DNA of 64,000 nt from an uncultured Myxococcales bacterium. Lineage in GTDB: Bacteria; Myxococcota_A; UBA9042; UBA3505. Where the stretch lies: NCBI GenBank assembly GCA_964594295.1, contig CAZQPP010000001.1:5039-69038 (forward strand), given 5' to 3'. Shown here one piece after another: positions 16,270 through 58,544 of the stretch. Under the pieces are notes generated by a model, which made no database searches, had not been told where the DNA came from, and saw only the letters and a list, made by a program, of their open reading frames with translations. The position numbers were made by a program, and so were the translations under genes. Each line of letters begins with the position of its first letter. The stretch's first letter is position 1.

Positions 16270-16312
16270 ACGCGAGCCCGGGCAGTCCGGGCGCCGCCCC
16301 GGGCCGGGCCTC

Positions 16313-18181
16313 TCAGATCCTCTGCTTCGTCAACGCACGCTCGAGCAGCGCACCTATCTCGGACGCGAAACGATCCACGGGCACCTCGGCAATCGACTCG
16401 GGGTAGAACTCGCGAACGTGCTCCGTGTCCGGACCGAGCCCCACGCCGACGAGCTCGACGTCGCACGCGGCGTTGCGGAGCTCGGCGATGGCCTGCTCGA
16501 GGTCGTGCTCGTCGGAGTGTCTTCCTTCGGGGTAGCCGTCGCTGACCGAGATCAGGAGCCTGTCGGTGCAGGGGTAGTCGAGCAGCAGGGCGGCCGCCCT
16601 CCGGAGACAGGGGCCGTCGTCGTTGTAGGCGGGCTCGTTGTGGCCGTCGGGGCGCTCTCCGGCGACCTCGAGCGGCATCTCGCCGATGGCCCTTCGCGCT
16701 GAGGCGGTGAGGCCGTCACCGAAGTTGGCGAAGGGGATGATCTCATCTTGAAAGCCGATGACCGCGAACGGGATGCCGAGCTGGCTGAGGCACTCGACGA
16801 GGAGCACGCTTCCCTGCAGCGCTGCGGTGGCCTTGTCGCCACGCATCGAACCGCTCAGGTCGACGAGCAGCATGACCGCGGCGTCGCGTCGCTCGGGGAT
16901 CGAGGAGCGCATCCACAGGTCGTCGTAGCGACGCGGGTCTGCGTGGAAAGCCATCAGCAGCCGCAGGTCCACGCGCTGCCCGGTCGGGTAGCCGCCGACC
17001 GTTCGAAGGCGCTTGCGCGGCCGCAGCACCTCCTCGATGTGTCCGGCCAGGCGGTCGATCTGGCTGGCCACGGCTGCCCGCGCTCTCTCGTAGGAGGAGT
17101 CGTCGCTCCAACGCACCTGCAGCGGCTCAGACGATCCGGTGGGCCCGACGGGGCTTTGGCCCGCTTCGTCGGGTGAGCCGAGAAGCGGCGAGCGACCGTG
17201 CCCCGGCTGCCCCGGTGCTCCGCCCTGCTCGGCGACTGGAGAGGAGGTTCGGGAGCGCATGAGCACGTCGAGCAGCTCGTTCGCCACAGCCTCCACGGAG
17301 GGCCTGGGTGTGTGCTTGGCGCGCTCGGCGGTCGTGGCCTCCCCTACGATGCGCGCGGCTGCGCGGGCGTCGCTCCGGCGCACGGAATCTCGGGCCCGTT
17401 GCGCTCGCTCGGGATCTCCGGCGAGGTGCTGCGCCACGCGCTCGCGATCGGCCTGCAGCAGGCGCCGGGCCACCGGCAGCACCTCGTCGACGGCGACGCG
17501 CAGGGCCTCGGCCGCGGAGAGCCGCACGGCCTGCTCGACGCGCGGAGGTATCCAGCGGCTGGCCGCGGCCGTCAGCCAGGGCCAGACCTCCTCGCGGTAA
17601 CGCGTGCCGAGCTCCGTCCCCATGGCCGTGGGGTCGAGGCTGACGGGCGGAAGGGTGTTGGCATAACGAATGCGCGCTTCCCGGGTCTCGGACAGGGCCT
17701 CGATGACCGCGGGCGGGCTCGCCGCCGGGTCCGGATTCGGTCGCCAGCCGGTCCTGCCCTCGGCCGCACACTCCCCGCAGAAGCGAATGAAGTCGGGAAG
17801 CACGGCGTTGGCGTCGGGGTGCCCGTATACTTCTGCGGCGCTTCTCAGCCACGCGGCCGCTCCGGGATATCGACGGCGAATCCAGGTCTCCACGCGGGGG
17901 TCTTCGATGCTGTTGAGCGCCAGCGCCAGGGCCGCGGGCGAGTCGAAGTCGACCTCGAAGATGGTGTAGCGGGAGGTGAAGAAGTGGCCCACCTCGTGGG
18001 CGACGATGCCGGCGCAGAGGTCGGGGCCGTGCGCCGAGAGGTCGTCGCGGGCGACCATGAGCACGCGGCGCACGGGATCCCAGGCCCAGGTCTGTGGGTG
18101 GAGCTCGAGGCCGATGCCGGCGTCATGGCACAGCCCCGAAGCGAGCGCCGAGAGCGCCTCGAGCTTGGCCTCGAGGCTCAA
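16313..18181 (-). CDS. vWA-domain protein with an N-terminal HExxH metallopeptidase-like domain (DUF2201-like architecture)
   Basis: ORF-track 622 aa. HExxH in IVAHEVGHFF near the N-terminus. MIDAS motif in VMLLVDLSGSM near the C-terminus. 4-bp overlap with the upstream AAA+ gene. Confidence 0.8.
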   Translation of the reverse strand: MSLEAKLEALSALASGLCHDAGIGLELHPQTWAWDPVRRVLMVARDDLSAHGPDLCAGIVAHEVGHFFTSRYTIFEVDFDSPAALALALNSIEDPRVETWIRRRYPGAAAWLRSAAEVYGHPDANAVLPDFIRFCGECAAEGRTGWRPNPDPAASPPAVIEALSETREARIRYANTLPPVSLDPTAMGTELGTRYREEVWPWLTAAASRWIPPRVEQAVRLSAAEALRVAVDEVLPVARRLLQADRERVAQHLAGDPERAQRARDSVRRSDARAAARIVGEATTAERAKHTPRPSVEAVANELLDVLMRSRTSSPVAEQGGAPGQPGHGRSPLLGSPDEAGQSPVGPTGSSEPLQVRWSDDSSYERARAAVASQIDRLAGHIEEVLRPRKRLRTVGGYPTGQRVDLRLLMAFHADPRRYDDLWMRSSIPERRDAAVMLLVDLSGSMRGDKATAALQGSVLLVECLSQLGIPFAVIGFQDEIIPFANFGDGLTASARRAIGEMPLEVAGERPDGHNEPAYNDDGPCLRRAAALLLDYPCTDRLLISVSDGYPEGRHSDEHDLEQAIAELRNAACDVELVGVGLGPDTEHVREFYPESIAEVPVDRFASEIGALLERALTKQRI

Positions 18182-21150
18182 CGATCGCCGCCCTGGTCCC
18201 CGGAGTCCGGACCGCCGTCGCTGTCGCCGTCACCGCCGCTGCTCTCACCGGGCGCTCCGATGGACCACGTATTCGGCCCGATGCCGGCGGCGTCGAGGAG
18301 CCGCACCACCACGTTCCGATCCGCGGAGGTCGCCACCCGGCCCACGTAGTAGCGCAGCAGGGCGCGCCGGAAGGCGAGGATCTTCTGCGTTCCGTCCTCC
18401 CCGGCCAGGACGCTGCCGAGGAAGTCCATCACGCTCAGGAGCCCGCGCCGGGTGAAGACGTAACGTTCCTTGCGCCGCGCACCCAGCCGCGCCGTACCGT
18501 CCTCGCTGCGCACCGCCGCCTCGAGCCCCGCGTGGAAGCGGGCCAGCGCGGTGAGCAGCTCGGCGATGTGGTCTATCTCGGCCAGCGAGCCCAGGGCAGG
18601 CACGGTCGCGCTGCCGCCGGTGTATGCTCTCCCTCGCAGGGTGACCGGCGGCTGAGCGCCGTACACCAGGTACCTCAGCATCGCGAGATACCCGCGCTCA
18701 CCCGGAGGCGACACATAACGATAGCCGCGCCATCGATCCCGGTAGGCCGGGCTGAGCGTCGAGCGACCGGCGTACTCCGCGGGGTTCATCGTGGCGAAGA
18801 TCCGGAAGCTCGGGTGGACGGGCGTCTTCGAGCCTCCGATCACCTCGTTGCAGTGCTCGGTGACGACAAGGTAGGGGTCGCGCTCGAGGACCGAGTTCAG
18901 GCGCTCCAGGATCTGAGGCTCGGCCAGGTTGACCTCGTCGAGGATCACCCACCATCCATGGCGCATGGCCTGCACGACCAGCCCGTCGTGCCACCTCCAC
19001 GGGTGGCTGTGCATGCGCTCGTTGGCCATGATCTGCTGAACCTCGAGGGCGCTCAGGGCTCTGCTCTCCTCATCCGCGCGGGTCAGGATCAGCTTGGTCT
19101 CCGGCTCGAGCAGGTCGGAGGACTCCCTGAGATCATCGGGCCGGAAAGGCAGCTCCAAGGCGAGATCCTGCGGGACGAAGCGACCTATCAGCTCGCCGGT
19201 GTCGGTCTGGCCGTTGAGGTTCAGCCTCGCCACCGGCTGGTTCAACAACGAGGCCAGGTAGAGCACGCTGCTCGTCTTCGAGGTGCTGGTCTCGCCCTCG
19301 AGCAGGCAAGGCTCGCGCAGGAGCGCGCAGGTCGCGACGTGCGCCAGGGTCGCCGCCGTGTGCTCGTCGAGGCAGTAGTGCGCGAAGGCGCCGGGATCCG
19401 GCGCGCTCTCGTGGCGGGGGCCTGACAGCCGGCGCAGCGTCACGTCGCCCACCCGCAGCGACTCCGCCTCCACGTGCACGAAGGGGGTCGGCTCCCCCGG
19501 GTCCGAGTCGACCTCGCGCAGCCAGCTGTCCACGTCGAAGTCACCCGTGTTGTCGCCTTCCTCCTCGCTCCGGATCGCGGAGTCGTCCTGGCGCGGAAGG
19601 AACAACCAGATGTCGTTGTCGGAGTCCGGCCACGCCTTCTCCACGGGAATGTCGACACCGACGTGCTCGAGGACCAGCGCCTTGATCTCGCTTATCAGGT
19701 ACGACGGTGCGCCGCCGTAGCGGATCTCCCGATCGCGGGAGCCGGTTCGCTGCGAGACCGAGCCGAAGCCGTAGGAACGCAGCTCCTCACACAGCTCGGG
19801 CCAGTCCTCCGAGGAGTGCTTGTGAATTGACAGGTCGAACCTCGACGCCCGCGCGCGGAGCCTCTCCCGCAGCGAGCCGTCGTCGATCCCCTCGGTGGGG
19901 ATCTGCACCACGATCCGCTGTGGGCTGGAGTCGTCGCCCAGCTTCACCGTCTCCAGCGAGAAGCCCTCGGCGCCGATCTCCTCCATCGCCCGTCGCACGA
20001 CGGCCTCGAGTGGGCCGGCCACGGTGGGCTCGTCCGAGCTGCCGCTCCAGATGATCGAGAAGCCGCGAAGCTCGCCGGACAGCGGCGCGGTTTGCACGGA
20101 GGCGAAGCCCATGCCCTCGAGCTCCTCGACGAGCCCCGTGAGCTCGTCGGGCTTGTCGGTCTCGACAGTCACGGCGAAACGCTCCGGGTAGGGGCCGGCG
20201 TAGGGGCGTATCCTGCCTCCCTCGAGCGCACCCATGGGCATCAGGATGCGCGCGCTCATGGGGGCGGAGTTGTCCTTGTTCACGACCGGAAAGCGCGTCG
20301 AGTCCACGCCACGGTCGCTGAGGAAGCTCTTGAACAGGCTGCCGAGACGCGACCCGTCCACACCGGCGCTGTCCTCGTCGAGCTCGGCGAAAGGACCGGG
20401 CGAGAGCTCGAAGCGACAGGTCTCCATGGTCGAGGAGTCAAGCTCCCGCACGCTCAGGTTCGTGAAGCCTCCCGATCGCAGCCGGCCGCAGAGGGCCTCG
20501 GCAGCCTCCAGGTCGTCCGAGAGCACCTCGACCTCGAGGTACTCCCCGGGCTTCTTGGCCTCGTGCTCCGGATCCCTCAGGTACAACCAGATGTCGTCGT
20601 CACCGTCAGACCAGGCCTTTCGTTCCTCCAGCTCTATGCCGAGATCGTGAGCCAGCAGCCAGCGGATGGCGTGACGGACGAAGGGCGTGGCGCCGCCGTA
20701 CATGAGCTGGCTCTCCTCCTGGTATTCCAGCTCCGTACCTTCGTAGGTCAGGCCCAGGCTGGCCAGGGTCCTACGAGCCTCGGCGGCGACCTTCTTCGAG
20801 TCGACCTTGAGCGAGACGTCCCATTTCCCGCACGAGGTCGTGTCCCCGAGCCGCAGCTCCGCGTCGGCGCCCTCGAGCCCCGGGAGCGACTTCATCGGCG
20901 GGCTCAGCGGGCGCAGCGCGCGCATCAGCGCGTGCAGATCGGCGGCCCCGATCGAGTTGCTGTGGCAGAGCTCGTAGGTAGTGCTCGTGGCTGATCTGAT
21001 GTCGACCGACCAGCCCTCCTGCGCCTCCAGGACGGCGGCCAGGGGAAGAGTAATCTCTCCGATGTCGCTGACGATACGGATTCTCAAGGTTCGTTCATCC
21101 GGCCTGCGTGATTGAAAGCTACCCGAAGCGCTCAATGCTGCCTCAGACAC
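18178..21150 (-). CDS. AAA+ ATPase (AAA_5/MoxR-McrB-like) with a ~600-aa N-terminal region containing an internally duplicated module
   Basis: ORF-track 990 aa, GTG start. Degenerate Walker A LLEGETSTSKTS. Walker B WWVILDEVN. FATMNP sensor region. The N-terminal half carries two copies of ...GGA(P/T)...(E/V)(R/E)KAW(S/P)D(G/S)D(D/N)DIWL(Y/F)L. Confidence 0.75.
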   Translation of the reverse strand: MSEAALSASGSFQSRRPDERTLRIRIVSDIGEITLPLAAVLEAQEGWSVDIRSATSTTYELCHSNSIGAADLHALMRALRPLSPPMKSLPGLEGADAELRLGDTTSCGKWDVSLKVDSKKVAAEARRTLASLGLTYEGTELEYQEESQLMYGGATPFVRHAIRWLLAHDLGIELEERKAWSDGDDDIWLYLRDPEHEAKKPGEYLEVEVLSDDLEAAEALCGRLRSGGFTNLSVRELDSSTMETCRFELSPGPFAELDEDSAGVDGSRLGSLFKSFLSDRGVDSTRFPVVNKDNSAPMSARILMPMGALEGGRIRPYAGPYPERFAVTVETDKPDELTGLVEELEGMGFASVQTAPLSGELRGFSIIWSGSSDEPTVAGPLEAVVRRAMEEIGAEGFSLETVKLGDDSSPQRIVVQIPTEGIDDGSLRERLRARASRFDLSIHKHSSEDWPELCEELRSYGFGSVSQRTGSRDREIRYGGAPSYLISEIKALVLEHVGVDIPVEKAWPDSDNDIWLFLPRQDDSAIRSEEEGDNTGDFDVDSWLREVDSDPGEPTPFVHVEAESLRVGDVTLRRLSGPRHESAPDPGAFAHYCLDEHTAATLAHVATCALLREPCLLEGETSTSKTSSVLYLASLLNQPVARLNLNGQTDTGELIGRFVPQDLALELPFRPDDLRESSDLLEPETKLILTRADEESRALSALEVQQIMANERMHSHPWRWHDGLVVQAMRHGWWVILDEVNLAEPQILERLNSVLERDPYLVVTEHCNEVIGGSKTPVHPSFRIFATMNPAEYAGRSTLSPAYRDRWRGYRYVSPPGERGYLAMLRYLVYGAQPPVTLRGRAYTGGSATVPALGSLAEIDHIAELLTALARFHAGLEAAVRSEDGTARLGARRKERYVFTRRGLLSVMDFLGSVLAGEDGTQKILAFRRALLRYYVGRVATSADRNVVVRLLDAAGIGPNTWSIGAPGESSGGDGDSDGGPDSGDQGGDR

Positions 21151-21255
21151 GGCGTGACGTGCAAGGTGGCCACGCCGGACCCTGCTGGCAGCTCCTCACA
21201 CGGAGCGCACGTCGGAAGCGCTGCAGGACACCTGAGACCGGCCCAACGAGCCGAA

Positions 21256-23901
21256 TCAGCTCCAGGTGGCGGTGAAGACGACCGGAGAGCCTCCCTCGAA
21301 GAGGGCGTTGAGCACCTGGCCGGTCTCCTCGTCGGTCACCCCGGCCAGGATCGCCCCGGTCTCCTCGTCGACGAAGAGGACCTCGAGGTACACGGCGAGC
21401 CCTTCAAGCTCGGCTCGGGTGAGCTGCTTCTGGTCCCCGGTGAGGTCCTCGGTTCCGGTCACCGTGCTCAGGTAGACACGCCTGCCCAGGTGCTCGCGCG
21501 CGAGGCGCTCGTCCTTGCGGCGTGTGAGCGCGAGCAGGAGCAGGCGCAGGGCCTCGGTGACATCGTCCGCCGAGTAGTCCCAGTCGTCGGTGAGCCCGTA
21601 CTCTCGGGCGACCTCCCTCGGCTCGTCGGCCTGCATGACGATCAGGTTCGACCCCGAGAGCGGCGTGGAGCGATCACGCAACGCCTTGATGCACGCCTTT
21701 TTCACGTCGCTGTCAGTCTCGTCCGCGAGCATCTCCAGCAAGCGCGGCACGAACGCGGCGGAGCCGGAGCGGGCCATGGCGTTCACCGCTGCCCGGCGCA
21801 ACGCCCAGTCCGAGTCTCGAGACAGCTCGATGAGGATCGCCAGCGCCTCGCTCGAGTCGCCGGCTCCCGCGTCGATCAGGGCCTGCACCTTGGCTAGAGC
21901 GATGGGGCCGTCATCGTCGTGTGCGATGCGCGCGAGCAGGGCTTGGAGCTTGGGAGCCGGCATCCCGGCCCGGCCCGCCGCGGCCACGAGGCGCGAGCGG
22001 ATCACCTCGTTTCTCGACAGCACCAGCCAGTCGAGGTGCTCGATCTCGTCGAAGGCGAGGTCCCCGCTCAGCAACGCGGCGACCTCGGCCAGGAGCGGGT
22101 CCGTGGGTGCATCGAGCCGCGTCAACGCGCTCGCGGCCGCTCGCCGCGTTCTCTCGCTGCGGCTCTCCAAGAGGGAGGCGATCATCGGCTCCGCGCGGCT
22201 GCGCAGCTTGTGCGAGGACTCGAGAAGGAGCCCCGCGTAGCCCTCCGCGTCCCGCAGCGCGAAGAGCGTCGCCGCCTCGGAGTCGTCCTTGTCGAGCTCG
22301 AGGCCTCCTGGGTCACCAGCCAAGGCCAACCGGGCGTGGAAGCGACCGAGCTGCGTCAACGGTCCGCCAAGGCACTCGAGGTTCAATGCCACGAGCCTGG
22401 CCTCGCCGAGGTCATCGCAGGCGTCGAGCACCAGGTCCAGCGCCGCGCGGCACGCCGAGCCACCCACCAGCCCCGCGAGAACGCAGGCTCGCTCCCACGG
22501 CTCGAGCGCGTCGGTCATGCCGAAGTACACCTCCTTCTGCCGTATCTGCTTGGCAAGGCGTCCGGGATGCGCACGGTAGAAGCGCAGCTCCCGATCCGGA
22601 TCCCCGCTGTGGTGGAGCCGCGACTCCTCGATGTCGGGATCGTCGGTTGCGCCCAGGACCTCGAGGGCCCTTGGCAGCAGCGCCGTCACGGGGTCGTTGT
22701 GTCGGGCGACGGCGCGCACGTCCGGGTGCCTCGCCGCCCCGGCACCTTCTGCGCGAAGGACGCGCACGCAGCGTGCAACACGGGCCACGTCGTCGTCGTC
22801 GTCTTTGAGCAGCTCGTCGAGCTGCTCCTCGAAGGCGTCGAGCGTCAGGCACGCCATGGCGGCCCCTGTGCGAGCGTACCAGGAGGACGCGGAGAAGGTG
22901 CCTCCCAGCCAGGCCGGAGTGTTCTCGGCGAGCGTTGCCGCCGCCGCCACGGCGAGCACCTCGGTGTCCTCGTCCTCCCACTTCGCGAGGCGAGAGCCCA
23001 GCACCGGCGCCGCCCAGCGCTCGTCGGACCAGCAGAGGCGCAGCAGGATCTGCTGGATGACGTCGTCGTCGTCCGAGTCCAGCACCGCCCCGAGCAGGTC
23101 GGGATCGTGAAGGGAGATGATGATCTCGGCCAGCCTCGCGATGGCGGGTGCGCCGAGACACACCTCCTCGACGATCTTCTCAACGGGGCTCGAGATCTCC
23201 GCGCCCGCTCGCGCCGCTCGGAGCAGCAGCTCCGGGCACCCGCCGAGCACCTCGGGGTCCGACTCCGCGGTGACGAGCTCGAGGATCTCCTCATCGGTGA
23301 GCTTGTCCGCGGCGAGGTTCAAGACGGCGTAGGCGCTGCGGCGGACGTATTCGTCCTGGTGGCGTGCGTGGAGCCGCGCCACCTCGAGGGCTCGCTCGGA
23401 CCCTATCATCGCCAGCGCTTCCATGCTCGCCTTGAGCCTCCTCTCGGTGCCGAAGCCGCCTTCGTATCCACAGGCGGTGGCGACTTCGGCGAGCGGCCTC
23501 TCCAGCTCGTGCAGGCCGCAGTCACCCGCGAAACGAAGCACCTCGTAGCGAGGCTGCTCTCCCTCGATGTGCTGCCGCACAGCTTGAACCAGCGCCGATC
23601 GCTCGACGGGCGCCGCCAGGGCCCTAACCGAGCCGGAGAGGGTGTTCTCCGGGACGCCGGCGGCAGCCAGGACCGGCCGGACCTCCGAGTCGAGGCCTAC
23701 CTTGACCTCGAATACCTCGCACCAGCGCATGACCTGCTCGCGCTGGTAGACCCACAACGATGGGGCGGCTTCGGTGGCCTTCTTCTGCTCCGCCCTCCGG
23801 GAGAACTGCTCCAAGAGCGCCAGCTCCTCCTCGGTGAGCGTCGAGAAGCTACCCGCCTCGAGGGCCTTGGCGACGACCTGCCGTGCGTGGCGTTGTTTCA
23901 T
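21256..23901 (-). CDS. HEAT/PBS-lyase-type repeat protein (~882 aa)
   Basis: The ORF track extends to 25164, but the upstream 420 residues are Arg/Pro/Gly frame shadow over the neighbouring gene. ATG 23901-23899 (MKQRHARQVV...) overlaps the upstream stop TGA 23900-23898. Repeats such as RRAAVNAMARSGSAAFVPRLLEMLADETDSDVKKACIKALRD are HEAT-like. Confidence 0.7.
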   Translation of the reverse strand: MKQRHARQVVAKALEAGSFSTLTEEELALLEQFSRRAEQKKATEAAPSLWVYQREQVMRWCEVFEVKVGLDSEVRPVLAAAGVPENTLSGSVRALAAPVERSALVQAVRQHIEGEQPRYEVLRFAGDCGLHELERPLAEVATACGYEGGFGTERRLKASMEALAMIGSERALEVARLHARHQDEYVRRSAYAVLNLAADKLTDEEILELVTAESDPEVLGGCPELLLRAARAGAEISSPVEKIVEEVCLGAPAIARLAEIIISLHDPDLLGAVLDSDDDDVIQQILLRLCWSDERWAAPVLGSRLAKWEDEDTEVLAVAAAATLAENTPAWLGGTFSASSWYARTGAAMACLTLDAFEEQLDELLKDDDDDVARVARCVRVLRAEGAGAARHPDVRAVARHNDPVTALLPRALEVLGATDDPDIEESRLHHSGDPDRELRFYRAHPGRLAKQIRQKEVYFGMTDALEPWERACVLAGLVGGSACRAALDLVLDACDDLGEARLVALNLECLGGPLTQLGRFHARLALAGDPGGLELDKDDSEAATLFALRDAEGYAGLLLESSHKLRSRAEPMIASLLESRSERTRRAAASALTRLDAPTDPLLAEVAALLSGDLAFDEIEHLDWLVLSRNEVIRSRLVAAAGRAGMPAPKLQALLARIAHDDDGPIALAKVQALIDAGAGDSSEALAILIELSRDSDWALRRAAVNAMARSGSAAFVPRLLEMLADETDSDVKKACIKALRDRSTPLSGSNLIVMQADEPREVAREYGLTDDWDYSADDVTEALRLLLLALTRRKDERLAREHLGRRVYLSTVTGTEDLTGDQKQLTRAELEGLAVYLEVLFVDEETGAILAGVTDEETGQVLNALFEGGSPVVFTATWS

Positions 23902-26736: not shown

Positions 26737-26805
26737 GCCCTGCGTCCCTCGTTGCGACCCGGCGAGTCTGCCGCGCGAAGGGAGCGAAGTCCAACCGGGC
26801 CGCTG

Positions 26806-29800
26806 CTAGATCTGCTCCGGGGCCTGCTCGTCGAGGGGCGCCGCGACCGACTGAAGCTCGCGTGCCAGATCTGCGGCCGACGCGAAGCGCTGCTCGGGCT
26901 CCTTGGCAAGGCACTTGCGGATCAGCTTGTCGAGCTCCGCGGGCACCTCCGCCCGCTCGCGGCGCGGGCTCGGGACTGGATCCCTGGCGTGCGCCATCCC
27001 GGAGGCGAGCGCCGTCTCCTTGCGGAAGGGAGCGCTCCCCGTCAGGAGCTCGAAGAGCACGACGCCGAGGGAGTAGATGTCCGAGCGCGCTGTGGGCTCC
27101 TTCCCTTCGAACTGCTCGGGGCTCATGTACTCCGGAGTGCCGACTGCCATGCCGGTCATGGTCAGGGTGATGCTCTCCCTCGATCGGGCTATGCCGAAGT
27201 CGGTCAGCTTGACCCGGCCGCCTTCGAAGAGGAGGAGGTTCGCCGGCTTGATGTCGCGGTGGAGGATCTCCGCCGCGTGGACCGCCGACAGGGCGTCGCA
27301 GACCTGGCCCCCGATGTCGAGCACCTGCTCTACGTCAAGGGGCAGGGGAAGCTCGCTGGCGTCGAGGGCGACCCGATCGCCGCCGGCGGGCCAGCCGGTG
27401 GCCCGCTCCATGACGATGTAGAGGTCGACCAGGGTGTCTCCCGAGCCGAGCACGCGGGTGATGCTCGGGTGATCGAGGTCCCTGGCGTTGCTCGTTTCGA
27501 GGAGGAAGCGCTCGACCATCGAGTGGTCACCGAGGTAGCGGTAGGGCAGGAGCTTGAGGGCCAGCGCCGCCGCGTCCCCACCTGCCTCCTCGTCCTTCAC
27601 CTCGTAGATGTCGGCCATGCCGCCGCTGCGGAGGTGAGCCAGCACGCGGTAGCGCTTGTCGATCAGGACTCCCGGCTCGAGGCGCTCTCGTGCAGAGGCG
27701 CCGTCGACACGCAGCAGCCTGGCCTTGCGGCGGCGCAGCTCGGGACGGCGAAGCTCCGTCGCGAGCTCGGCGCGCCCTTCCTCGAGCTTGAAGCTGTGGG
27801 ACACGGGCTTGTCGTCGTCATCATCGATGACCGGCGATCCCGCGATCCCGCGGTACTCCATGCGGCGGGAGCTCACCTTCCGAAGCACGAAGAGGTGTGC
27901 CTTGTGACAGTCCGGGCAGTCGCGGTGCACGTAGAAGGGGTGGAGGTCCAAGACCTCCCCCTTTGCCGGGCTGACGCAGTAGACGTGCTGCGCGCTCAGC
28001 TCGAGGTCCGACTGGACCACGGAGTGCTCGGCGGTGCCGTGGAAGCCCATGAGGAGCCGGCAGCTGTGTTTCCGCAGCCCGTGCTCAGCGCTGGCGTGGT
28101 CCACCGCGACGAGGGGGTAGTCCTTGAGGAAGGCGACGCTCTGCAGGAGGCGCAGGACCGCGGTCTTGAAGTCCTTCAGCTCGGCTGGGGTTGGCGGTGT
28201 GCCTTCGCGACGTTTCAGCAGGTCGTTTCGCTGCTCGACCAGGGCGTCGATTGACTTCAAGAGGTGTCGTGATCTCTCGCCGTACAGCTCGGAGAGGAAG
28301 GCCTCCCCGTGACCGGCCGTGGTCTTGAGGGCGTCGCGCAGCAGCCCCGTCCAGTCGCCCAGGCTCGGTGGTTTCTTGAGTCGCTCCAGGAGTGGGCCTG
28401 CCGTGGCGGAGGAGACGGCGATGGCATCGCTGAAGGCCAGCACGGCCAGGTGCCGCACCGTGCAGCTCAGCAGGTCCGCGAGCTGGCTCAAGCGAGCGCC
28501 GCTCCGAGCCCCTTCGCGAAGGCCGTAGCACGCCCGGGCGACGGGGTGCGGGAAGCGGTGCTCTACGGCGTTGAGCAGCAGGGCCGAGGGGATCTCGGCG
28601 CTGGAAGGAGGCGACGCGGCGGCTGGTGCCGGAGTCGCCGCGGTCGTCGCCGGCATCATGCGCTTCATGAGTTCGGCCGTCGCCGGGGCCGAGGTCACCG
28701 AGAAGATCACGACGAGCGAGGCGTCTCGCCGCGCCGCGATCTCCATGACCGCGTCGAACATCACCCCGGCCGCCTCGCGGGGGTGGATTCCGCCGGCTCG
28801 GGCCGCGAGCAGCGGCAGCGCCACGCTGGTCCAGCCGCGCTCCGTCGCTTCCTCGAGGCATCGCCGCACGACCTCGCGGAGGATCTCGGTGTCGGGCGGC
28901 CTGCCGGTGAGATCGTCGATCACCCCGGCGTGGATGACGTGCCGGGCCGGTAAGCGCCCTGCCGCGGTTACGCTGACGCCGCCGTGCTCCAGCGGACCGC
29001 TACACGAGGCCTCCCGGTCGATCTCCGCGCCACCGCGGCGCTGGATGGCGCCGTGTACGCTGCGGGACGGGGCCTCGCGGACCCGAAGGCTGCGGCTGCG
29101 GGAGACCGCGATCGCGTCGACGGACAGGGAGCAGATGTCCGCGGTGGTGAGCTTGACGAGGCACTCCCCGAGGGCGACCTCGGCGTCGGACTCGATGTCT
29201 CGCGGGTCGGGGCGTGGTGGGCCGTCGTGAGCGCCGGGAGGTGCGGCCTCCGCAGACGAGGGCGCCTGTTCACGCTCCCAGCGCTCTCGGGCTTCCGGCC
29301 CGATTTCCGGCAGCCCCGGTCCGGGAGCGCCGAAGACGCCCTTGGGCTCCCAGCGGTGGTCGATGTGGAGAGGGTGGATCGCGTGTCCGGCCTGGGCCTG
29401 CTCGATCTGGCGCCGGTAGTCTGCCGCCATCGGACCGACGACCTCCCGGAATGCCCATGCAGTCAGGCAGGCGCGGTTCTGGATGAAGGTGAGGCGGTCC
29501 TCGAAGGGCCAGCCGAAGACGACGTCAAAGCCGGCGCGTTGCGCGTCGGCCAGGGTCTCCAAGCTCTCGACCGGCACGGTGGGAACCGCCAGGAGACGGA
29601 GATCGATCGAGCCACCCTCGCTCGCGACCGTGCTTCGGCCCAGGTCGGCAAGAGGCTCGGATAGGTCGATGGCGCGTTGCACACTCTTGCCCAGTGGCTC
29701 TTTGGAGCTGCCTGCGTCGGGAGATCCGAAGGTCCCCGCGATGCCGATCTTGGGTTCCTTGGCGATTGCTTCGAGTGGGTCCAGCGACAGGATGCGTTGG

Positions 29801-31824
29801 TCGATCGCGGGAGAAGCCCTTGCAACGAGCCAGTCCAGGACCGGGTTCAGATCATGTGGATGAATAGGACGCTTTCCGTCGACGGTGAGCTCGGGACGCC
29901 AAAGCAGATCCTTCAGCGGCGACTCCGTTACAGCCCCGTGGGCCAGCTCCTCGAGAGAGCAGGAGCCTTCGTCTGTCACTGGCTCTATGAACACGTCTCG
30001 AGCACGTCGCCAATCGCGTTGGATTGAGGTCGCCTCCTTGCATGAGCGCAAGAGCGTATCTGCGGCAATCACGGTGGCCTTTCCGGTGGTCCGCAGCTTC
30101 GCCAGACACCCCCTGCACTCCTCTGTCAGGGCGCTGAGCACCTGTGGTTTGGCGGAAGCGATCAGCACAGGAACAGCCTCTTCAGCGAGCTGCACGAGGC
30201 GCTCCATAGCAGTGGCCTTGGCAGCTTCAAGACCCAGCGTGCGAAAGAAGAAGAGGCCGCCGGCGGAGGATGCCAGCTTCTCTTCGAGGTCTGTTGTCAG
30301 CTTCCATGGCTCGTTCATGAGGGTGGGCCGAGCCATGACGACAGAGGCCTCGTCCGCCCAGGATGACATGCGTGTCAAGAGAGCAAGAATCGACTCACGC
30401 CAGTCGAGAGGGTGAAGCTCACAGTCGCGCCAGAGCCGCTCGAAGAAATCGTCCCGGCGGATCTCGTCCACAAATGCGGACGTCGACCTTGCGATAGGCC
30501 GCTGTGTTGCAACGAGCCGGTCCCTGACTGTGGCCACGATTGGCCGTAGCTCGGGAGCGCGATGCGACAGGGCGGACACGCTGGCTCGAATAGCGTCGCG
30601 GTCAACCGCCGCCAGAGCTACCCGCTCCAATTCTCCTTCATGGTCCCGCAACATGCTCAGAATTCGCTCTGCGAGCCTCCCCGAGCTGCCGCGGGGCGCC
30701 ACTTCCGCACCTGTCCACGCACTGCCGAGCATCTCGAGTGTGCGCGCGGCGACCTCGTCCGCGCAAAGGCTCACAAAACGCTCTCGTTGCCGCACCCGTA
30801 TTGCCGAGACCCCCGCCGTCTCGTATCGCCTGGGTGACAGACCTGGGGCTGGCACTGCGATGTGGGGCAACTGGTTTGACTTCCAAGCGGCAAACCTCCC
30901 GGCGAGGGGGTCGATGCTGGATGCCAGGGCGATCTCCGCCGCTGCCCGGAGGTTTTGCGTGGTCGTTGCAGCGTGACCTCCGAGCAGGCAAACGCTCTCG
31001 AATGGGGCGTTGCTTGCCTTGTCTTCCCCGGGCCTCCCGTGGGGATCGAAAACGAGCGGCATCGACGGCCGGCCGCCGGCGCCCGCGGTGTGCGGGATGG
31101 CCATGAAGGCGTCGATCTCCTTCAAGGCGGCGTAGGCGTTCGAGTTGAGGTGGCCGTGGTCGGAGATCTCCCTGAACGCCGAGGGCAGGAGGAGAAGGGC
31201 CTCGAGCCGGGGGGGCTTTCCGGAGAGTCGCTGCCACAGCGACCGGACCAGGTATGCCGCCGGCAGCAGGATGGCGCCACCCGTCTCGCCGCACAAGGAG
31301 GCAGCGAAGAGCAAGCGATACGGCGCCGTCGAGTCACGTGAAGCCGCCGCAGTTGAGAGGCGGTCGTACTCGGCGCGCAGTACCTCGCGGAAGCCGCTGT
31401 TTTCGGCAAGATGACAGTAGAAGCGCAGGCGGCTCAGGAGTCGCGAGCCGCCTGCGCCCTTTTGTAGCTGCCTCGAAGTGGACAACAACTCCGAGTAGGA
31501 GGGACCGAGCCAGGACCCCAACCGAGCGTCGTCGGCGCGACGCTCCAGCTTCTCGTAGTTGTCTGCCTGCCGGGCAAGGTCGCGCCCTGTCATCCCAACG
31601 GTCTGCACCGGCTCGGCCAGCGGCTCCGCGGGCTCCCAGAAGTCGGCGCACACGAACCCGACCCGAGCGCGGATGTCCTCCCAACGCGTTGACTCTTGGA
31701 GGCGGCGAGCGACCGTGTCGACGATCCGCGTCCCGGCCCCGCCGAGGCCGATGAAGATGGTCGGCCTCGCGGCCAATGCCGGCCCTAACCGGTGACCACG
31801 GCCCCGGAGGGCGTGGTCTCGCAA
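26806..31824 (-). CDS. Giant multidomain protein: N-terminal tubulin/FtsZ-like GTPase-like domain (tentative), macro (ADP-ribose-binding) domain, degenerate HEPN-like helical domain, and C-terminal active Ser/Thr protein kinase
   Basis: ORF-track 1672 aa. The N-terminus PTIFIGLGGAGTRIVD is GxGGxG T1-loop-like, and CGETGGA is T4-like. The macro segment reads VDAIAVSRS...SVHGAIQRRGG...AGRLPARHVIHAGV...SVALPLLAARAGGIHP. The segment LLKSIDALVEQRNDLLKRREG...FLKDYPLV is paralogous to the HEPN-like N-termini of the 10995 and 36147 proteins, but His is replaced by Lys. The kinase carries HRDIKPANLL, DFG and GTPEYMSPE. Confidence 0.8.
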   Translation of the reverse strand: MRDHALRGRGHRLGPALAARPTIFIGLGGAGTRIVDTVARRLQESTRWEDIRARVGFVCADFWEPAEPLAEPVQTVGMTGRDLARQADNYEKLERRADDARLGSWLGPSYSELLSTSRQLQKGAGGSRLLSRLRFYCHLAENSGFREVLRAEYDRLSTAAASRDSTAPYRLLFAASLCGETGGAILLPAAYLVRSLWQRLSGKPPRLEALLLLPSAFREISDHGHLNSNAYAALKEIDAFMAIPHTAGAGGRPSMPLVFDPHGRPGEDKASNAPFESVCLLGGHAATTTQNLRAAAEIALASSIDPLAGRFAAWKSNQLPHIAVPAPGLSPRRYETAGVSAIRVRQRERFVSLCADEVAARTLEMLGSAWTGAEVAPRGSSGRLAERILSMLRDHEGELERVALAAVDRDAIRASVSALSHRAPELRPIVATVRDRLVATQRPIARSTSAFVDEIRRDDFFERLWRDCELHPLDWRESILALLTRMSSWADEASVVMARPTLMNEPWKLTTDLEEKLASSAGGLFFFRTLGLEAAKATAMERLVQLAEEAVPVLIASAKPQVLSALTEECRGCLAKLRTTGKATVIAADTLLRSCKEATSIQRDWRRARDVFIEPVTDEGSCSLEELAHGAVTESPLKDLLWRPELTVDGKRPIHPHDLNPVLDWLVARASPAIDQRILSLDPLEAIAKEPKIGIAGTFGSPDAGSSKEPLGKSVQRAIDLSEPLADLGRSTVASEGGSIDLRLLAVPTVPVESLETLADAQRAGFDVVFGWPFEDRLTFIQNRACLTAWAFREVVGPMAADYRRQIEQAQAGHAIHPLHIDHRWEPKGVFGAPGPGLPEIGPEARERWEREQAPSSAEAAPPGAHDGPPRPDPRDIESDAEVALGECLVKLTTADICSLSVDAIAVSRSRSLRVREAPSRSVHGAIQRRGGAEIDREASCSGPLEHGGVSVTAAGRLPARHVIHAGVIDDLTGRPPDTEILREVVRRCLEEATERGWTSVALPLLAARAGGIHPREAAGVMFDAVMEIAARRDASLVVIFSVTSAPATAELMKRMMPATTAATPAPAAASPPSSAEIPSALLLNAVEHRFPHPVARACYGLREGARSGARLSQLADLLSCTVRHLAVLAFSDAIAVSSATAGPLLERLKKPPSLGDWTGLLRDALKTTAGHGEAFLSELYGERSRHLLKSIDALVEQRNDLLKRREGTPPTPAELKDFKTAVLRLLQSVAFLKDYPLVAVDHASAEHGLRKHSCRLLMGFHGTAEHSVVQSDLELSAQHVYCVSPAKGEVLDLHPFYVHRDCPDCHKAHLFVLRKVSSRRMEYRGIAGSPVIDDDDDKPVSHSFKLEEGRAELATELRRPELRRRKARLLRVDGASARERLEPGVLIDKRYRVLAHLRSGGMADIYEVKDEEAGGDAAALALKLLPYRYLGDHSMVERFLLETSNARDLDHPSITRVLGSGDTLVDLYIVMERATGWPAGGDRVALDASELPLPLDVEQVLDIGGQVCDALSAVHAAEILHRDIKPANLLLFEGGRVKLTDFGIARSRESITLTMTGMAVGTPEYMSPEQFEGKEPTARSDIYSLGVVLFELLTGSAPFRKETALASGMAHARDPVPSPRRERAEVPAELDKLIRKCLAKEPEQRFASAADLARELQSVAAPLDEQAPEQI

Positions 31825-31898
31825 GACGTTCCAGAGCTCATCAGGGGAGCGAGCCTACCAGCGGCTCCAAGAGCGCGACAAGCTACCGTGCGCGGCGT

Positions 31899-31926
31899 GG
31901 GCTCCCGAGCCCGGGGGCTCGAGCCC
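31899..31926. promoter_or_regulatory. Composite GC-rich palindromic element GGGCTCCCGAGCCCGGGGGCTCGAGCCC in the divergent intergenic region, candidate operator
   Basis: Read directly: GAGCCC-gg-GGGCTC (31907-31920) overlapping the perfect 12-bp palindrome GGGCTCGAGCCC (31915-31926). It lies between the divergent starts of the giant VMAP-like gene (31824) and the TIR-NACHT gene (32043). Confidence 0.3.
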
Positions 31927-31942
31927 GATGGCGGGTGTGCGC

Positions 31943-31971
31943 TTGACGCCTCCACGCCGCAACGCTCAGAT
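31943..31971 (+). promoter_or_regulatory. Weak sigma70-like promoter candidate for the TIR-NACHT-WD40 gene: TTGACG, 17 nt, TCAGAT
   Basis: -35 TTGACG at 31943-31948. 17-nt spacer. -10 TCAGAT at 31966-31971, a 3/6 match. ~70 nt upstream of ATG 32043. Confidence 0.2.
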
Positions 31972-40668: not shown

Positions 40669-40954
40669 CTTCAGCGCCGTCATCGGGCAGCTCCGCGCCA
40701 CGGGGAGGGCGCAGATGCGATTCGAGGGCGGCTCGATGCGCCCGCTGCTCGAGTCGGGGCGGGTATACACCTTCGAGTTTGCCGAGCGCTACGAGGTAGG
40801 GGACATGGTCTTCTGCCGCGTGGACGGCAGGTACATCGACGCCCACCTGGTGCGCGAGGTAGACGCCGAGAAGGGATACTTGATCGGCAACAACCTGGGA
40901 GGGAAGCCGGACGGGTGGACCTGGGAGGTCTTCGGGCGGATCGTGGACGCTTGA
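40649..40954 (+). CDS. Small protein with a LexA/S24-peptidase-like signature (tentative)
   Basis: ORF-track 101 aa, overlapping the RNA ligase gene by 20 bp. EGGSMRPLL resembles the GxSMxP Ser-nucleophile motif of S24/S26 peptidases. A downstream Lys (AEKGYLIGNN) could be the general base. Confidence 0.35.
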   Translation: MSMDRRDFSAVIGQLRATGRAQMRFEGGSMRPLLESGRVYTFEFAERYEVGDMVFCRVDGRYIDAHLVREVDAEKGYLIGNNLGGKPDGWTWEVFGRIVDA

Positions 40955-58534: not shown

Positions 58535-58544
58535 CGGCCCGGCG

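What the first reader, a model, noticed from the sequence alone, without database searches (positions are those of the whole stretch)
16313..31824. Six-gene MoxR/vWA operon with two AAA+/vWA pairs, a HEAT protein and a giant kinase-containing protein, resembling a vWA-MoxR ternary conflict system
Seen: the minus-strand order is giant protein (26806-31824), MoxR AAA+ (GRHGTGKT), vWA-HExxH protein, HEAT-repeat protein, second AAA_5-type ATPase (990 aa), second vWA-HExxH protein. There are ATGA or 4-bp overlaps at 23898-23901 and 18178-18181. There is a 105-bp internal gap at 21151-21255. Established knowledge: MoxR AAA+ ATPases act with vWA partners. vWA-MoxR systems with a third effector-bearing component have been described as NTP-dependent conflict systems. 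Inference: the giant macro-kinase protein is the third (effector/sensor) component. Having two ATPase/vWA pairs and a HEAT scaffold in one operon is unusual.
Basis: partly seen in the sequence, partly recalled or inferred. Interest (0 to 1): 0.8.

Follow-up and report, generated by a model that had tools for sequence, protein, structure and literature searches.

The report
Three stacked ATPase modules, not one operon
The six genes are real, but they are three separate units lying head to tail in a defence-island-like region of a myxobacterial genome: a one-off giant protein, a conserved three-gene ATPase/adaptor/scaffold set, and a widespread two-gene ATPase/adaptor set, and neither set has been described before.

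Summary

Comparative genomics splits the cluster exactly at its two intergenic gaps.
1. MoxR -> HExxH-vWA -> HEAT protein is a strictly ordered three-gene operon. It stands alone in at least 12 other Myxococcota loci with unrelated neighbours.
2. The 990-aa AAA_5 ATPase -> HExxH/CobT-like vWA pair stands alone in about 25 metagenome loci of GC 0.36-0.72.
3. The giant tubulin-like/macro/kinase protein has no close relative anywhere. It is never found beside either module.

The conserved third component of the MoxR-vWA set is therefore the HEAT protein, not the giant. The HEAT protein is marked by a rare C-terminal alpha/beta domain.

The triad meets none of the defining features of the four published ternary types (VMAP, iSTAND, FtsH, beta-propeller).

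The window also holds a third AAA_5 ATPase and a HEAT-HExxH-vWA fusion protein. TIR-NACHT-WD40, GmrSD and ARPP-1 genes are present too.

Best reading: stacked, independently mobile NTPase conflict modules. A defence role is inferred, not shown.

The parts
26806..31824 (-). Giant multidomain protein (1672-aa ORF; public call 1656 aa from TTG 31776). Lineage-specific; not part of either conserved module.
   Evidence: Only distant Tubulin_2 hits (26-29% identity over about 36% of the query) were found among 5.8e9 clusters.
30742..31758 (-). Tubulin_2 (FtsZl1) domain of the giant, residues 23-361. The T1 loop GLGGAG is kept. The T4 signature is degenerate: GETGGA, where relatives have GGTGSG.
   Evidence: Pfam 106.8 bits against a cut-off of 27. 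Alignment with six relatives.
28759..29064 (-). Macro (ADP-ribose-binding/hydrolase-type) domain of the giant, residues 921-1022.
   Evidence: Pfam 2.2e-16. NCBIfam ADP-ribose-binding models about 1e-15, below their cut-offs.
27655..28569 (-). Pre-kinase domain of about 300 aa, residues 1086-1390. It is shared with two other kinases of the window. The R-N-x3-H motif of the other two is RNDLLK here.
   Evidence: BLASTP of the giant (residues 1086-1650) against the PK-WD40 protein (residues 14-559), E 8e-24. Alignment A6. No Pfam family.
26881..27648 (-). Ser/Thr protein kinase domain, residues 1393-1648. The HRD, DFG and catalytic-Lys motifs are present.
   Evidence: Pfam 1.8e-38. Sequence read.
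26737..26805 (-). 69-bp gap between the giant and MoxR: the first module boundary.
   Evidence: No terminator-like site. RNA fold z-score +0.54.
25303..26736 (-). MoxR-type AAA+ ATPase (477 aa) with an all-helical C-terminal extension of about 270 aa. First gene of the conserved triad.
   Evidence: AAA_5/AAA_3. 205 homologues with Walker A/B and Arg residues invariant. Model pLDDT 90, matching RavA 3nbx, MoxR 2r44, BchI and MCM.
23898..25301 (-). vWA1 (467 aa): N-terminal zincin-like HExxH domain (HELLH at 25056-25070), a linker, and a C-terminal vWA with MIDAS DxSxS (24273-24287). Second gene of the triad.
   Evidence: HExxH is kept in 21 of the 23 orthologues; MIDAS is kept in all. DUF2201_N is hit by 14/20 members, DUF2201 by 9/20, VWA_CoxE by 8/20.
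21256..23901 (-). HEAT-solenoid protein (881 aa), the conserved third gene of the triad. Solenoid at residues 1-745, plus a C-terminal alpha/beta domain (residues about 750-881, 21256-21654).
   Evidence: Follows vWA1 in 12 or more loci. Model pLDDT 88.8. The C-terminal domain is found in only 50 cluster representatives, nearly always at the extreme C-terminus. It is shared with a gene of about 370 aa upstream of MoxR in distant systems (hhalign probability 93.8).
21088..21255 (-). Gap between the HEAT and AAA_5 genes (105 bp to the longest ORF start, 168 bp to the called start): the second module boundary.
   Evidence: No promoter- or terminator-like site. RNA fold z-score -0.56.
18178..21150 (-). 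AAA_5 ATPase (990/969 aa). It has a unique N-terminal region of about 590 aa with an internal duplication, plus one midasin-like AAA module (residues 605-808, 18727-19338; Walker A GETSTSKT, Walker B ILDEVN). First gene of the dyad.
   Evidence: PDB search: best single Midasin module 83.7 bits, against CobS 25 and NorQ 22. 35 metagenome relatives.
16313..18181 (-). vWA2 (622 aa): N-terminal HExxH domain (HEVGH, 17984-17998), a long linker, and a CobT_C/midasin-type MIDAS domain (DLSGS, 16850-16864). Second gene of the dyad.
   Evidence: orthologue at 47% identity, HExGH kept. Midasin MIDAS 6qt8 at 1.3e-8, CobT at 1.7e-4. It follows the ATPase in about 25 loci.
40915..42189 (+). Outside the finding: a third AAA_5/NorQ-like ATPase (424-aa ORF), convergent with the fusion protein listed next.
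   Evidence: Pfam AAA_5 1.7e-14. NorQ 9qh4 at 7.5e-9.
43081..48309 (-). Outside the finding: a 1742-aa fusion of HEAT repeats, HExxH (HELGH, about residue 1249) and vWA (DCSGS, about residue 1590). One polypeptide carries what vWA1 and the HEAT protein carry as two.
   Evidence: HEAT_2. VWA_CoxE 1.8e-5. BLASTP to vWA2, E 5e-5. Motifs read.

Best explanation
The region is a stack of three independent modules on one strand, inside an island of conflict-type genes.

**Module A: MoxR -> zincin-vWA -> HEAT protein.** This is a self-contained ternary NTPase system.
- Shown: the order is strict, the genes are translationally coupled, and the triad recurs in other genomes. The ATPase motifs, the HExxH motif and the MIDAS site are all conserved.
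- Inferred, by analogy with NorQ/NorD and other MoxR-vWA pairs: the MoxR hexamer grips the C-terminal vWA domain of vWA1 and uses ATP to twist or stretch the linker to its N-terminal zincin-like domain. The MIDAS site holds an acidic residue of a client.
- Inferred: the HEAT solenoid is the sensor or scaffold. It docks through its conserved C-terminal alpha/beta domain. Remodelling switches the HExxH peptidase, or releases the client.

**Module B: AAA_5 protein -> HExxH/MIDAS protein.** This is a second, unrelated two-gene machine of the same logic. Its ATPase and MIDAS domains are, among solved structures, closest to eukaryotic Midasin. Its N-terminal region of about 590 aa would be the client or sensor end.

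**Module C: the giant protein.** It is a lineage-specific, single-chain signalling or effector protein. It combines a tubulin-like domain with a degenerate GTP loop, a macro domain, a pre-kinase domain and an active-looking Ser/Thr kinase. Its kinase module is paralogous to two neighbouring kinases. It may work on its own, or with the divergently transcribed TIR-NACHT-WD40 gene.

The modules sit together because conflict systems accumulate in islands, not because they form one machine.
For: **The boundaries in the window coincide with the units seen elsewhere.**
- Triad alone: L002-4, L006, L007, L009, L010; L031, L032, L034, L039, L040/41 with annotated unrelated neighbours such as polA, gcvT, priA and cox genes.
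- Dyad alone: L035 and about 25 of 35 metagenome loci, with no other conserved neighbour.
- Giant: only distant Tubulin_2 hits, in contexts without MoxR.

**Couplings within modules.** ATGA and TTGA overlaps, and a 1-nt spacer between MoxR and vWA1, lie inside modules. The gaps of 69 bp and 105-168 bp lie between modules.

**Functional residues are conserved**.

**The third component.** The C-terminal domain of the HEAT protein recurs in the gene next to MoxR in distant systems. It is rare and nearly always at the extreme C-terminus. A HEAT-HExxH-vWA fusion 20 kb away links HEAT repeats and zincin-vWA in one chain.

**Divergence pattern.** MoxR 56-64% identity, vWA1 44-56%, HEAT 27-31% in the same loci.

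**Conflict context.**
- The window holds TIR-NACHT-WD40, PK-WD40, two GmrSD genes, a HerA-like NTPase and ARPP-1.
- Distant MoxR-vWA relatives sit next to NACHT-FGE-sulfatase, and next to CYTH-nucleosidase plus a Cas10-like gene.

**Mechanistic template.** The NorQD cryo-EM work (PMC13036017).
Against: - No experiment, and no hit in PADLOC, for any of the five AAA/vWA/HEAT proteins.
- Many triad loci lie among housekeeping genes.
- The HEAT partner has a constant size (870-940 aa). It lacks the hypervariable effector architecture typical of the published ternary systems.
- All six genes share a strand, and no terminator-like site lies in the gaps. Co-transcription and cross-talk are therefore possible.
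- FtsZl1/Tubulin_2 genes are typically linked to vWA genes (PMC2875224; a weak vWA gene next to P0125). This argues for some tie between the giant and the vWA genes.
- The structures of vWA1, vWA2 and the complexes were not modelled.
Confidence: 0.55

Rival explanations
1. One reading: one six-gene operon forming a single vWA-MoxR conflict system. The giant macro-kinase protein is the effector or sensor, and the HEAT protein is a scaffold joining two ATPase/vWA pairs.
For: - Same strand, short gaps, no terminator-like sites in the gaps.
- The order giant -> MoxR -> vWA mimics VMAP -> MoxR -> vWA.
- Tubulin-like, macro and kinase domains are all listed among the effector domains of ternary systems.
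- FtsZl1 operons usually contain vWA genes and often kinases.
Against: - The units are never co-located in 12 or more triad loci and 25 or more dyad loci.
- The giant has no orthologues.
- The two pairs are unrelated.
- None of the defining features of the published ternary families is met.
Confidence: 0.15
2. The triad and the dyad are housekeeping chaperone sets, like NorQD, CbbQO, CoxDE or CobST. They would mature or metallate a cellular enzyme or complex. Their presence in this island would be incidental.
For: - All characterised bacterial MoxR-vWA pairs are maturation factors (PMC13036017).
- Triad loci often lie among housekeeping genes.
- The partners have constant architecture.
- vWA2 and the AAA_5 protein give weak CobT/CobS matches.
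Against: - No conserved client gene lies next to either module.
- Distribution is rare and patchy: 28 loci in 185,579 species genomes, and 50 cluster representatives of the HEAT C-terminal domain.
- NCBIfam CobS/CobT scores are far below their cut-offs: 17 against 558, and 20 against 759. No CobN family was detected among the large window ORFs scanned.
- The conserved HExxH motif has no counterpart in the known maturation factors.
- Distant relatives have defence-type neighbours.
Confidence: 0.2
3. The giant protein belongs functionally to the divergently transcribed TIR-NACHT-WD40 / PK-WD40 pair, not to the MoxR genes. Its macro domain would read or degrade NAD-derived products of the TIR domain, and its kinase would relay the signal.
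For: - A divergent 218-bp region lies between the giant and the TIR-NACHT-WD40 gene.
- The pre-kinase plus kinase module of the giant is paralogous to the N-terminal module of the PK-WD40 protein (E 8e-24).
- The PK-WD40 and TIR-NACHT-WD40 proteins share 42.5% identical WD40 regions.
- Macro domains are linked to NAD-based conflict systems.
Against: - This rests on adjacency and domain logic alone.
- There are no orthologous loci to test it.
- The catalytic state of the macro domain was not examined.
Confidence: 0.1

Closest known systems
VMAP / iSTAND / FtsH / beta-propeller MoxR-vWA ternary conflict systems (Kaur, Burroughs, Iyer, Aravind 2020, PMC7159879)
   Same: - A MoxR-type AAA+ ATPase, a vWA partner with an intact MIDAS site, and a conserved third protein, in a fixed gene order.
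- The third component diverges faster than the ATPase.
- Found in Myxococcota and other aggregating bacteria.
- HEAT repeats and, rarely, metallopeptidase domains also occur in those systems.
   Different: - The third component here is a HEAT solenoid with its own C-terminal domain. It is not VMAP-C, iSTAND, FtsH or a beta-propeller.
- The order is MoxR -> vWA -> third component, where the VMAP type has VMAP -> MoxR -> vWA.
- MoxR has no N-terminal WxhapG/PsWRxa extension and no GxxxTAKS P-loop.
- The vWA domain is C-terminal to a constant zincin-like domain and carries no variable C-terminal effector array.
NorQ/NorD, CbbQ/CbbO, CoxD/CoxE, RavA/ViaA (characterised MoxR-vWA chaperone pairs)
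   Same: - A hexameric clade-7 AAA+ ATPase with a partner built as N-terminal domain, linker and C-terminal vWA/MIDAS.
- The fold of the MoxR model matches RavA and MoxR structures.
   Different: - No client enzyme is encoded nearby.
- The partner carries a conserved HExxH motif.
- There is an obligatory third HEAT protein.
- MoxR has an extra helical C-terminal extension of about 270 aa.
Pfam DUF2201_N + DUF2201 (putative metallopeptidase + VWA-like) proteins
   Same: The same two-domain layout. The vWA1 family hits these models: 14/20 and 9/20 members.
   Different: The window protein itself is below both gathering scores (13.7 against 23.2, and 19.1 against 26.4). No function is published for the family.
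Aerobic cobaltochelatase CobS/CobT and phage CobS/CobT-like pairs
   Same: An AAA_5 ATPase followed by a CobT_C-type vWA protein.
   Different: - No CobN.
- The ATPase has a unique N-terminal region of about 590 aa.
- vWA2 has an HExxH N-terminal domain.
- Scores to the CobS/CobT equivalogs are far below their cut-offs.
Eukaryotic Midasin (Rea1/Mdn1)
   Same: - The AAA module of the 990-aa protein scores 83.7 bits (E 1e-22) to a single Midasin AAA module, against 22-25 bits to CobS or NorQ.
- The MIDAS domain of vWA2 has Midasin's MIDAS domain as its best solved match.
   Different: - One AAA module rather than six fused ones.
- The MIDAS domain is on a separate polypeptide.
- Bacterial, with no ribosome-assembly context.
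FtsZl1 / Tubulin_2 operons (Makarova and Koonin 2010, PMC2875224)
   Same: A Tubulin_2 protein of more than 1000 aa lies next to vWA genes and is associated with a Ser/Thr kinase.
   Different: - The kinase and a macro domain are fused to the tubulin-like domain.
- The T4 GTP loop is degenerate.
- The neighbouring vWA genes belong to MoxR-type modules that occur elsewhere without any tubulin-like gene.

Membership tests
VMAP-type vWA-MoxR ternary system | A VMAP protein with a VMAP-C domain encoded immediately upstream of MoxR. | tested here: not met
   The upstream giant ends in a kinase domain. No Pfam family other than Tubulin_2, Macro and Pkinase was hit in it, including its sub-regions at E up to 1. 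Whether the Pfam copy holds a VMAP-C model was not checked separately; it does hold bpMoxR from the same paper.
VMAP-type vWA-MoxR ternary system | MoxR with an N-terminal extension carrying the WxhapG and PsWRxa motifs. | tested here: not met
   Walker A starts at residue 34. The 33 preceding residues hold no such motif (against the description read).
VMAP-type vWA-MoxR ternary system | vWA followed by a variable C-terminal array of effector domains. | tested here: not met
   vWA is the C-terminal domain. The N-terminal zincin-like domain is constant across 23 orthologues.
iSTAND / FtsH / beta-propeller ternary systems | A third component that is an inactive STAND NTPase or FtsH, or a beta-propeller fused to vWA. 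For the last two types, a GxxxTAKS P-loop in MoxR. | tested here: not met
   No such domains in the triad. The P-loop is GRHGTGKT. The window MoxR gave no bpMoxR hit at E <= 0.01. One 44%-identical relative, P0106, is borderline (27.9 against 27).
MoxR-type (clade 7) AAA+ ATPase | Walker A/B, sensor and arginine residues conserved, and an AAA+ fold closest to MoxR, RavA, chelatase and MCM. | tested here: met
   Invariant columns G34, G37, G39, K40, D101, E102, N138, R155 and R242 in 22 sequences. Foldseek hits RavA 3nbx, 2r44 and BchI 1g8p at E about 1e-5.
DUF2201-type zincin-vWA protein | An N-terminal HExxH (DUF2201_N) domain plus a C-terminal VWA-like (DUF2201) domain with MIDAS. | tested here: inconclusive
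   The motifs are present and conserved, and family members hit both models. The window protein is below both gathering scores.
Cobaltochelatase CobS/CobT | Equivalog-level similarity to CobS and CobT, and a CobN partner or cobalamin context. | tested here: not met
   TIGR01650 scores 17.4 against a cut-off of 558. TIGR01651 scores 20.4 against 759. No CobN family was detected among the large window ORFs scanned; the dyad loci share no third conserved gene.
FtsZl1 / Tubulin_2 | A Tubulin_2 profile match. | tested here: met
   106.8 bits against a cut-off of 27, covering profile positions 1-353 of 356.
FtsZl1 / Tubulin_2 | An intact tubulin/FtsZ GTP-binding signature (GGTGSG T4 loop). | tested here: not met
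   The giant has GETGGA, where five of the six relatives have GGTGSG/GGTGAG and the sixth (P0128) GGTGSS. The T1 loop GLGGAG is kept.
Midasin | Six tandem AAA modules and a MIDAS domain in one polypeptide. | tested here: not met
   A single AAA module (residues 605-808), with MIDAS on the next gene. This is a similarity, not membership.
Known anti-phage defence systems (PADLOC-DB 2.0) | A profile match of the core proteins to a catalogued system. | tested here: not met
   No hit for vWA1, the HEAT protein, the AAA_5 protein or vWA2. MoxR gave only a weak mad8 match (6e-4). The giant matches only through its generic kinase domain.

The most novel reading that the evidence does not exclude
Two claims would hold together.

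1. MoxR -> zincin-vWA -> HEAT protein (with its private C-terminal docking domain) is a fifth, so far undescribed class of MoxR-vWA ternary conflict system. In it, ATP-driven remodelling gates a latent HExxH peptidase.
2. The adjacent AAA_5 / HExxH-MIDAS dyad is a widespread bacterial family that is the closest prokaryotic relative of the eukaryotic ribosome-assembly motor Midasin (AAA module plus MIDAS domain). That would make it a candidate for Midasin's bacterial ancestor.
Probability: 0.3. Interest if true: 0.75.

Novelty: new variant of a known kind. Interest (0 to 1): 0.6.

Why it matters
MoxR-vWA pairs are among the least understood AAA+ machines. Only a few maturation factors (NorQD, CbbQO, RavA-ViaA) have known clients. 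The 'ternary' conflict systems are predictions without experiments.

This window gives two compact, conserved and separable modules with clear testable residues: Walker B, MIDAS, HExxH and a C-terminal docking domain. It also gives a natural fusion (HEAT-HExxH-vWA) that says which parts touch.

If the triad is a defence system, it adds a new third-component type and a protease output to the ternary scheme.

If the dyad is truly the nearest bacterial kin of Midasin, it offers a simple model for how an AAA ring drives a MIDAS domain.

The result also shows that 'one operon' readings in GC-rich defence islands can be stacks of independent systems.

Tried and rejected
- **Word-indexed homologue search for the AAA_5 protein.** It returned 2 hits and suggested an orphan. 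A pattern scan of metagenomes with the ATPase half then found 35 loci, so the apparent rarity was an artefact of the index.
- **First metagenome scan.** Patterns taken from the N-terminal region found nothing.
- **Promoter and terminator consensus scan over 15800-32300.** Counts were at chance level and nothing fell in the gaps.
- **RNA folding of both gaps.** Not different from shuffles. The internal-promoter question stays open.
- **Profile search of the MoxR family against PDB sequences.** No hit. Only the fold comparison worked.
- **Fold search of the HEAT model.** It returned only generic solenoids. The C-terminal domain could not be searched alone.
- **Idea that the two AAA/vWA pairs are tandem duplicates.** Rejected: no significant similarity beyond the MIDAS strand.
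- **Cobaltochelatase reading of the second pair.** Rejected.
- **PADLOC.** Nothing beyond generic kinase hits to the giant and a weak mad8 match for MoxR.
- **Literature search on DUF2201.** Nothing functional.
- **The tRNA-Ser call at 5606-5675.** It lies inside a 1300-aa ORF and is probably spurious.
Full report
**Observation**

The window is GC-rich (0.66-0.73). It corresponds to a metagenomic contig of a Myxococcota-like organism. The exact MoxR protein occurs on JGI contig Ga0118720_1004957 and on a 69.6-kb NCBI contig. The closest relatives are Polyangiales, Nannocystaceae and Labilithrix MAGs.

The ATGA overlap (vWA1/HEAT) and the TTGA overlap (AAA_5/vWA2) are read directly. MoxR and vWA1 are separated by one base if the publicly called GTG at 25301 is used.

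Three refinements:
- The giant protein begins with a full-length Tubulin_2 (FtsZl1) domain (106.8 bits).
- The AAA_5 gene is called at 969 aa by both JGI and NCBI, and orthologue P0122 begins to align at residue 22. The 'internal gap' is therefore 105-168 bp.
- A second gap of 69 bp separates the giant from MoxR.

**The cluster is three units, not one**

*The triad.* I searched for MoxR relatives (205 proteins). I fetched 28 genome loci and seven further annotated contigs.

- Wherever enough downstream sequence exists, MoxR is followed by a vWA1 orthologue.
- In the Myxococcota loci, and in one Bacteroidales locus, an 870-900-aa HEAT protein follows next.
- The flanks differ from locus to locus: priA, lgt, lspA; cox genes; polA, gcvT; a sigma factor; FG-GAP proteins. 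They are often on the other strand.
- None of these loci contains a relative of the giant, of the AAA_5 protein or of vWA2.

*The dyad.* The 990-aa ATPase at first seemed nearly unique (2 hits), although its one distant relative already sat in an ATPase -> vWA pair on its own. A pattern scan of metagenomes with the ATPase half then returned 35 loci with GC from 0.36 to 0.74.

- In about 25 of them a 930-1000-aa protein, with both the N-terminal region and the ATPase, is followed directly by a 600-700-aa vWA2 orthologue.
- Clustering of all flanking ORFs found no other gene conserved across lineages.
- There is no MoxR, vWA1, HEAT or giant hit in any of them.

*The giant.* It has no close relative. 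The N-terminal 900 residues found six proteins at 26-29% identity over the tubulin-like domain only. Their neighbourhoods contain other large proteins, not MoxR.

*Conclusion.* The two intergenic gaps of the window fall exactly at the borders of units that live separately elsewhere. The overlapping or abutting junctions lie inside the units.

**Module A: MoxR, zincin-vWA, HEAT protein**

*MoxR.* The ATPase has invariant Walker A/B, sensor and arginine positions across 22 diverse members. A confident model (pLDDT 90) matches RavA, a Cytophaga MoxR, BchI and MCM. This places it in the helix-2-insert / pre-sensor-1 hairpin group that includes MoxR. It adds an all-helical C-terminal extension of about 270 aa with no match.

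*vWA1.* It has an N-terminal domain with R-H-E-x-L-H, kept in 21 of the 23 orthologues. Its C-terminal vWA domain has all MIDAS residues (DxSxS, T, D) in every orthologue. Family members hit DUF2201_N (14/20), DUF2201 (9/20), VWA_CoxE (8/20) and SprT-like (4/20). The window protein itself is below the Pfam thresholds.

*The HEAT protein.* It models with pLDDT 88.8 as a solenoid (residues 1-745) followed by an alpha/beta domain (residues 750-881). The solenoid matches karyopherins, SF3B1, CAND1 and PP2A-A generically.

*The C-terminal domain is the informative part.*
- An exhaustive HMMER search of 1.84 billion cluster representatives found it in only 50 proteins. It is nearly always at the extreme C-terminus, mostly in proteins of 870-940 aa.
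- In distant MoxR-vWA systems (Clostridia, Nitrospirae and unclassified MAGs; 36-46% MoxR identity) a conserved gene of about 370 aa sits immediately upstream of MoxR. It has no Pfam match. Its C-terminus aligns with the HEAT protein's C-terminal domain (hhalign probability 93.8, E 1.8e-7).
- The third component is therefore defined by this domain, in the way VMAP-C defines VMAPs. Its position relative to MoxR can change.

*Divergence.* Within the same loci MoxR is 56-64% identical, vWA1 44-56% and the HEAT protein 27-31%.

**Module B: AAA_5 protein and vWA2**

- The ATPase has an N-terminal region of about 590 aa with no Pfam family. It contains an internal duplication: residues 148-191 resemble residues 475-518, E 1e-9.
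- It has a single AAA_5 module.
- Against all PDB sequences, its best single-module match is eukaryotic Midasin: 83.7 bits, E 1e-22, alignment running through the inter-Walker insertion. CobS scores 25 bits and NorQ 22 bits.
- The MIDAS domain of vWA2 likewise has Midasin's MIDAS domain as its best solved match (6qt8, 1.3e-8). CobT scores 1.7e-4.
- vWA2 keeps HExGH in its 47%-identical orthologue.
- The two ATPases and the two vWA proteins of the window are not detectably related to each other beyond the MIDAS strand. The second pair is therefore not a duplicate of the first.
- A cobaltochelatase role is excluded by the NCBIfam scores (17 against 558, and 20 against 759) and by the absence of CobN.

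**Module C: the giant protein**

Domain order:
1. Tubulin_2.
2. About 500 residues with no match.
3. Macro.
4. A domain of about 300 aa.
5. A Ser/Thr kinase with the HRD, DFG and catalytic-Lys motifs.

The tubulin-like domain keeps the T1 loop. Its T4 signature is GETGGA, where five of the six relatives have GGTGSG or GGTGAG and the sixth (P0128) GGTGSS. GTP handling may therefore be impaired.

The pre-kinase domain plus the kinase is paralogous to the N-terminal part of the neighbouring PK-WD40 protein (E 8e-24), and to an 801-aa kinase-like protein at 10995-13400. The two paralogues carry an R-N-x3-H motif reminiscent of HEPN domains; the giant has RNDLLK. The HEPN reading rests on the motif only and was not tested.

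**Context**

- Divergent from the giant lies a TIR-NACHT-WD40 gene, followed by the PK-WD40 gene.
- Further right are two GmrSD genes, a HerA/TrwB-like NTPase, an ARPP-1 protein and M48-TerB.
- To the left is an Hsp70-like gene with two unannotated giants.
- Twenty kilobases away lies a third AAA_5/NorQ-like ATPase (40915-42189). It is convergent with a 1742-aa protein that fuses HEAT repeats, an HExxH motif and a vWA/MIDAS domain. This fusion is independent evidence that HEAT repeats and zincin-vWA act together.
- Distant relatives of Module A sit next to a NACHT-FGE-sulfatase protein, and next to a CYTH-nucleoside hydrolase plus a Cas10/Cmr2-like gene. Altae-Tran et al. note vWA systems with kinase and tubulin domains near CRISPR loci (PMC10910872).

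**Mechanism**

*Shown:* conserved order, coupling, and conservation of the catalytic, MIDAS and HExxH residues.

*Inferred from the NorQD structures* (PMC13036017):
- In NorQD the MIDAS site is proposed, not shown, to be a contact point with the client.
- vWA1 and vWA2 have the same layout: N-terminal domain, linker, C-terminal vWA.

*My proposal:* ATP-driven remodelling controls the zincin-like domain, either through auto-inhibition or through access to a substrate. The HEAT solenoid acts as the sensor or scaffold and docks through its C-terminal domain.

A conflict role is inferred from four things: context, the patchy and rare distribution (28 loci in 185,579 species genomes), the faster divergence of the third component, and the neighbours of distant relatives. 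It is not shown. PADLOC has no model for these proteins.

**Comparison with the known**

The four published MoxR-vWA ternary types have defining features that I read from the paper and tested. None is met.

The closest functional analogues are the VMAP-type systems (same three-part logic) and NorQD-type chaperones (same two-part mechanics).

The link between the giant and the vWA genes has a thematic precedent in FtsZl1 operons (PMC2875224; a weak vWA gene beside P0125). It has no direct comparative support.

**Verdict**

The ternary logic holds, but with a different third component, the system is not a member of the published families, and the six genes are not a conserved unit.
- Novelty: a new variant of a known kind. 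Two by-products deserve follow-up: the third-component C-terminal domain and the Midasin-like dyad.
- Interest: 0.6.

Noticed in passing
window 40915-42189 (+) and 43081-48309 (-): A third AAA_5/NorQ-like ATPase, convergent with a 1742-aa HEAT-HExxH-vWA fusion protein. This is a single-chain counterpart of vWA1 plus the HEAT protein.
   Followed up: partly
window 39985-40954 (+): An RNA ligase family gene (PF09414, 1.6e-29) and a small S24-like ORF lie directly upstream of the third AAA_5 ATPase, on the same strand.
   Followed up: no
window 27655-28569 (-), 36147-37121 (+), 12021-13310 (-): Three kinases of the window share a pre-kinase domain of about 300 aa with no Pfam family. Two of them carry an R-N-x3-H (HEPN-like) motif. 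The giant has RNDLLK at that position.
   Followed up: partly
window 32043-36086 (+) and 36147-39911 (+): A TIR-NACHT-WD40 protein is transcribed divergently from the giant, followed by a kinase-WD40 protein. Their WD40 regions are 42.5% identical over 771 residues.
   Followed up: partly
window 1156-13400 (-): An Hsp70-like gene is followed upstream by two proteins of 1300 and 1117 aa with no family match, and by an 801-aa kinase-like protein. This may be another NTPase/Hsp70 conflict module of the kind discussed by Kaur et al.
   Followed up: no
window 51506-63891: A HerA/TrwB-like NTPase, two GmrSD (type IV restriction) genes, an ARPP-1 domain protein, M48-TerB and OmpA. Together they give the region a defence-island character.
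   Followed up: no
window 48342-50870 (+): An 842-aa DNA polymerase III alpha-like ORF (PHP, NTPase and finger domains). It is short for DnaE and is adjacent to the HEAT-vWA fusion gene.
   Followed up: no
L021 56-9990: In a Nitrospirae MAG, a 1990-aa ORF fuses RpoB-like and RpoC-like domains. A sigma-54 activator-type AAA+ protein follows it, upstream of a distant X-MoxR-vWA set.
   Followed up: no
L023 490-7278 and L014 10001-16216: Distant MoxR-vWA pairs are followed by a CYTH-nucleoside hydrolase fusion and a Cas10/Cmr2-like protein (L023), or by a NACHT-FGE-sulfatase protein (L014).
   Followed up: partly
L032 15468-17672: In one 6.6-Mb genome the triad is followed by a fourth gene, a second HEAT-repeat protein of 734 aa. 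The vWA1 orthologue of that locus has lost the HExxH motif.
   Followed up: no
window 5606-5675 (-): ARAGORN calls a 70-nt tRNA-Ser(GGA) inside the 1300-aa ORF. It is probably a false positive.
   Followed up: no
L054, L065, L069, L075, L076: A variant of the dyad. The vWA2-like gene precedes a shorter ATPase that lacks the N-terminal region, with a small conserved ORF of about 130-150 aa between them in three of the loci.
   Followed up: no
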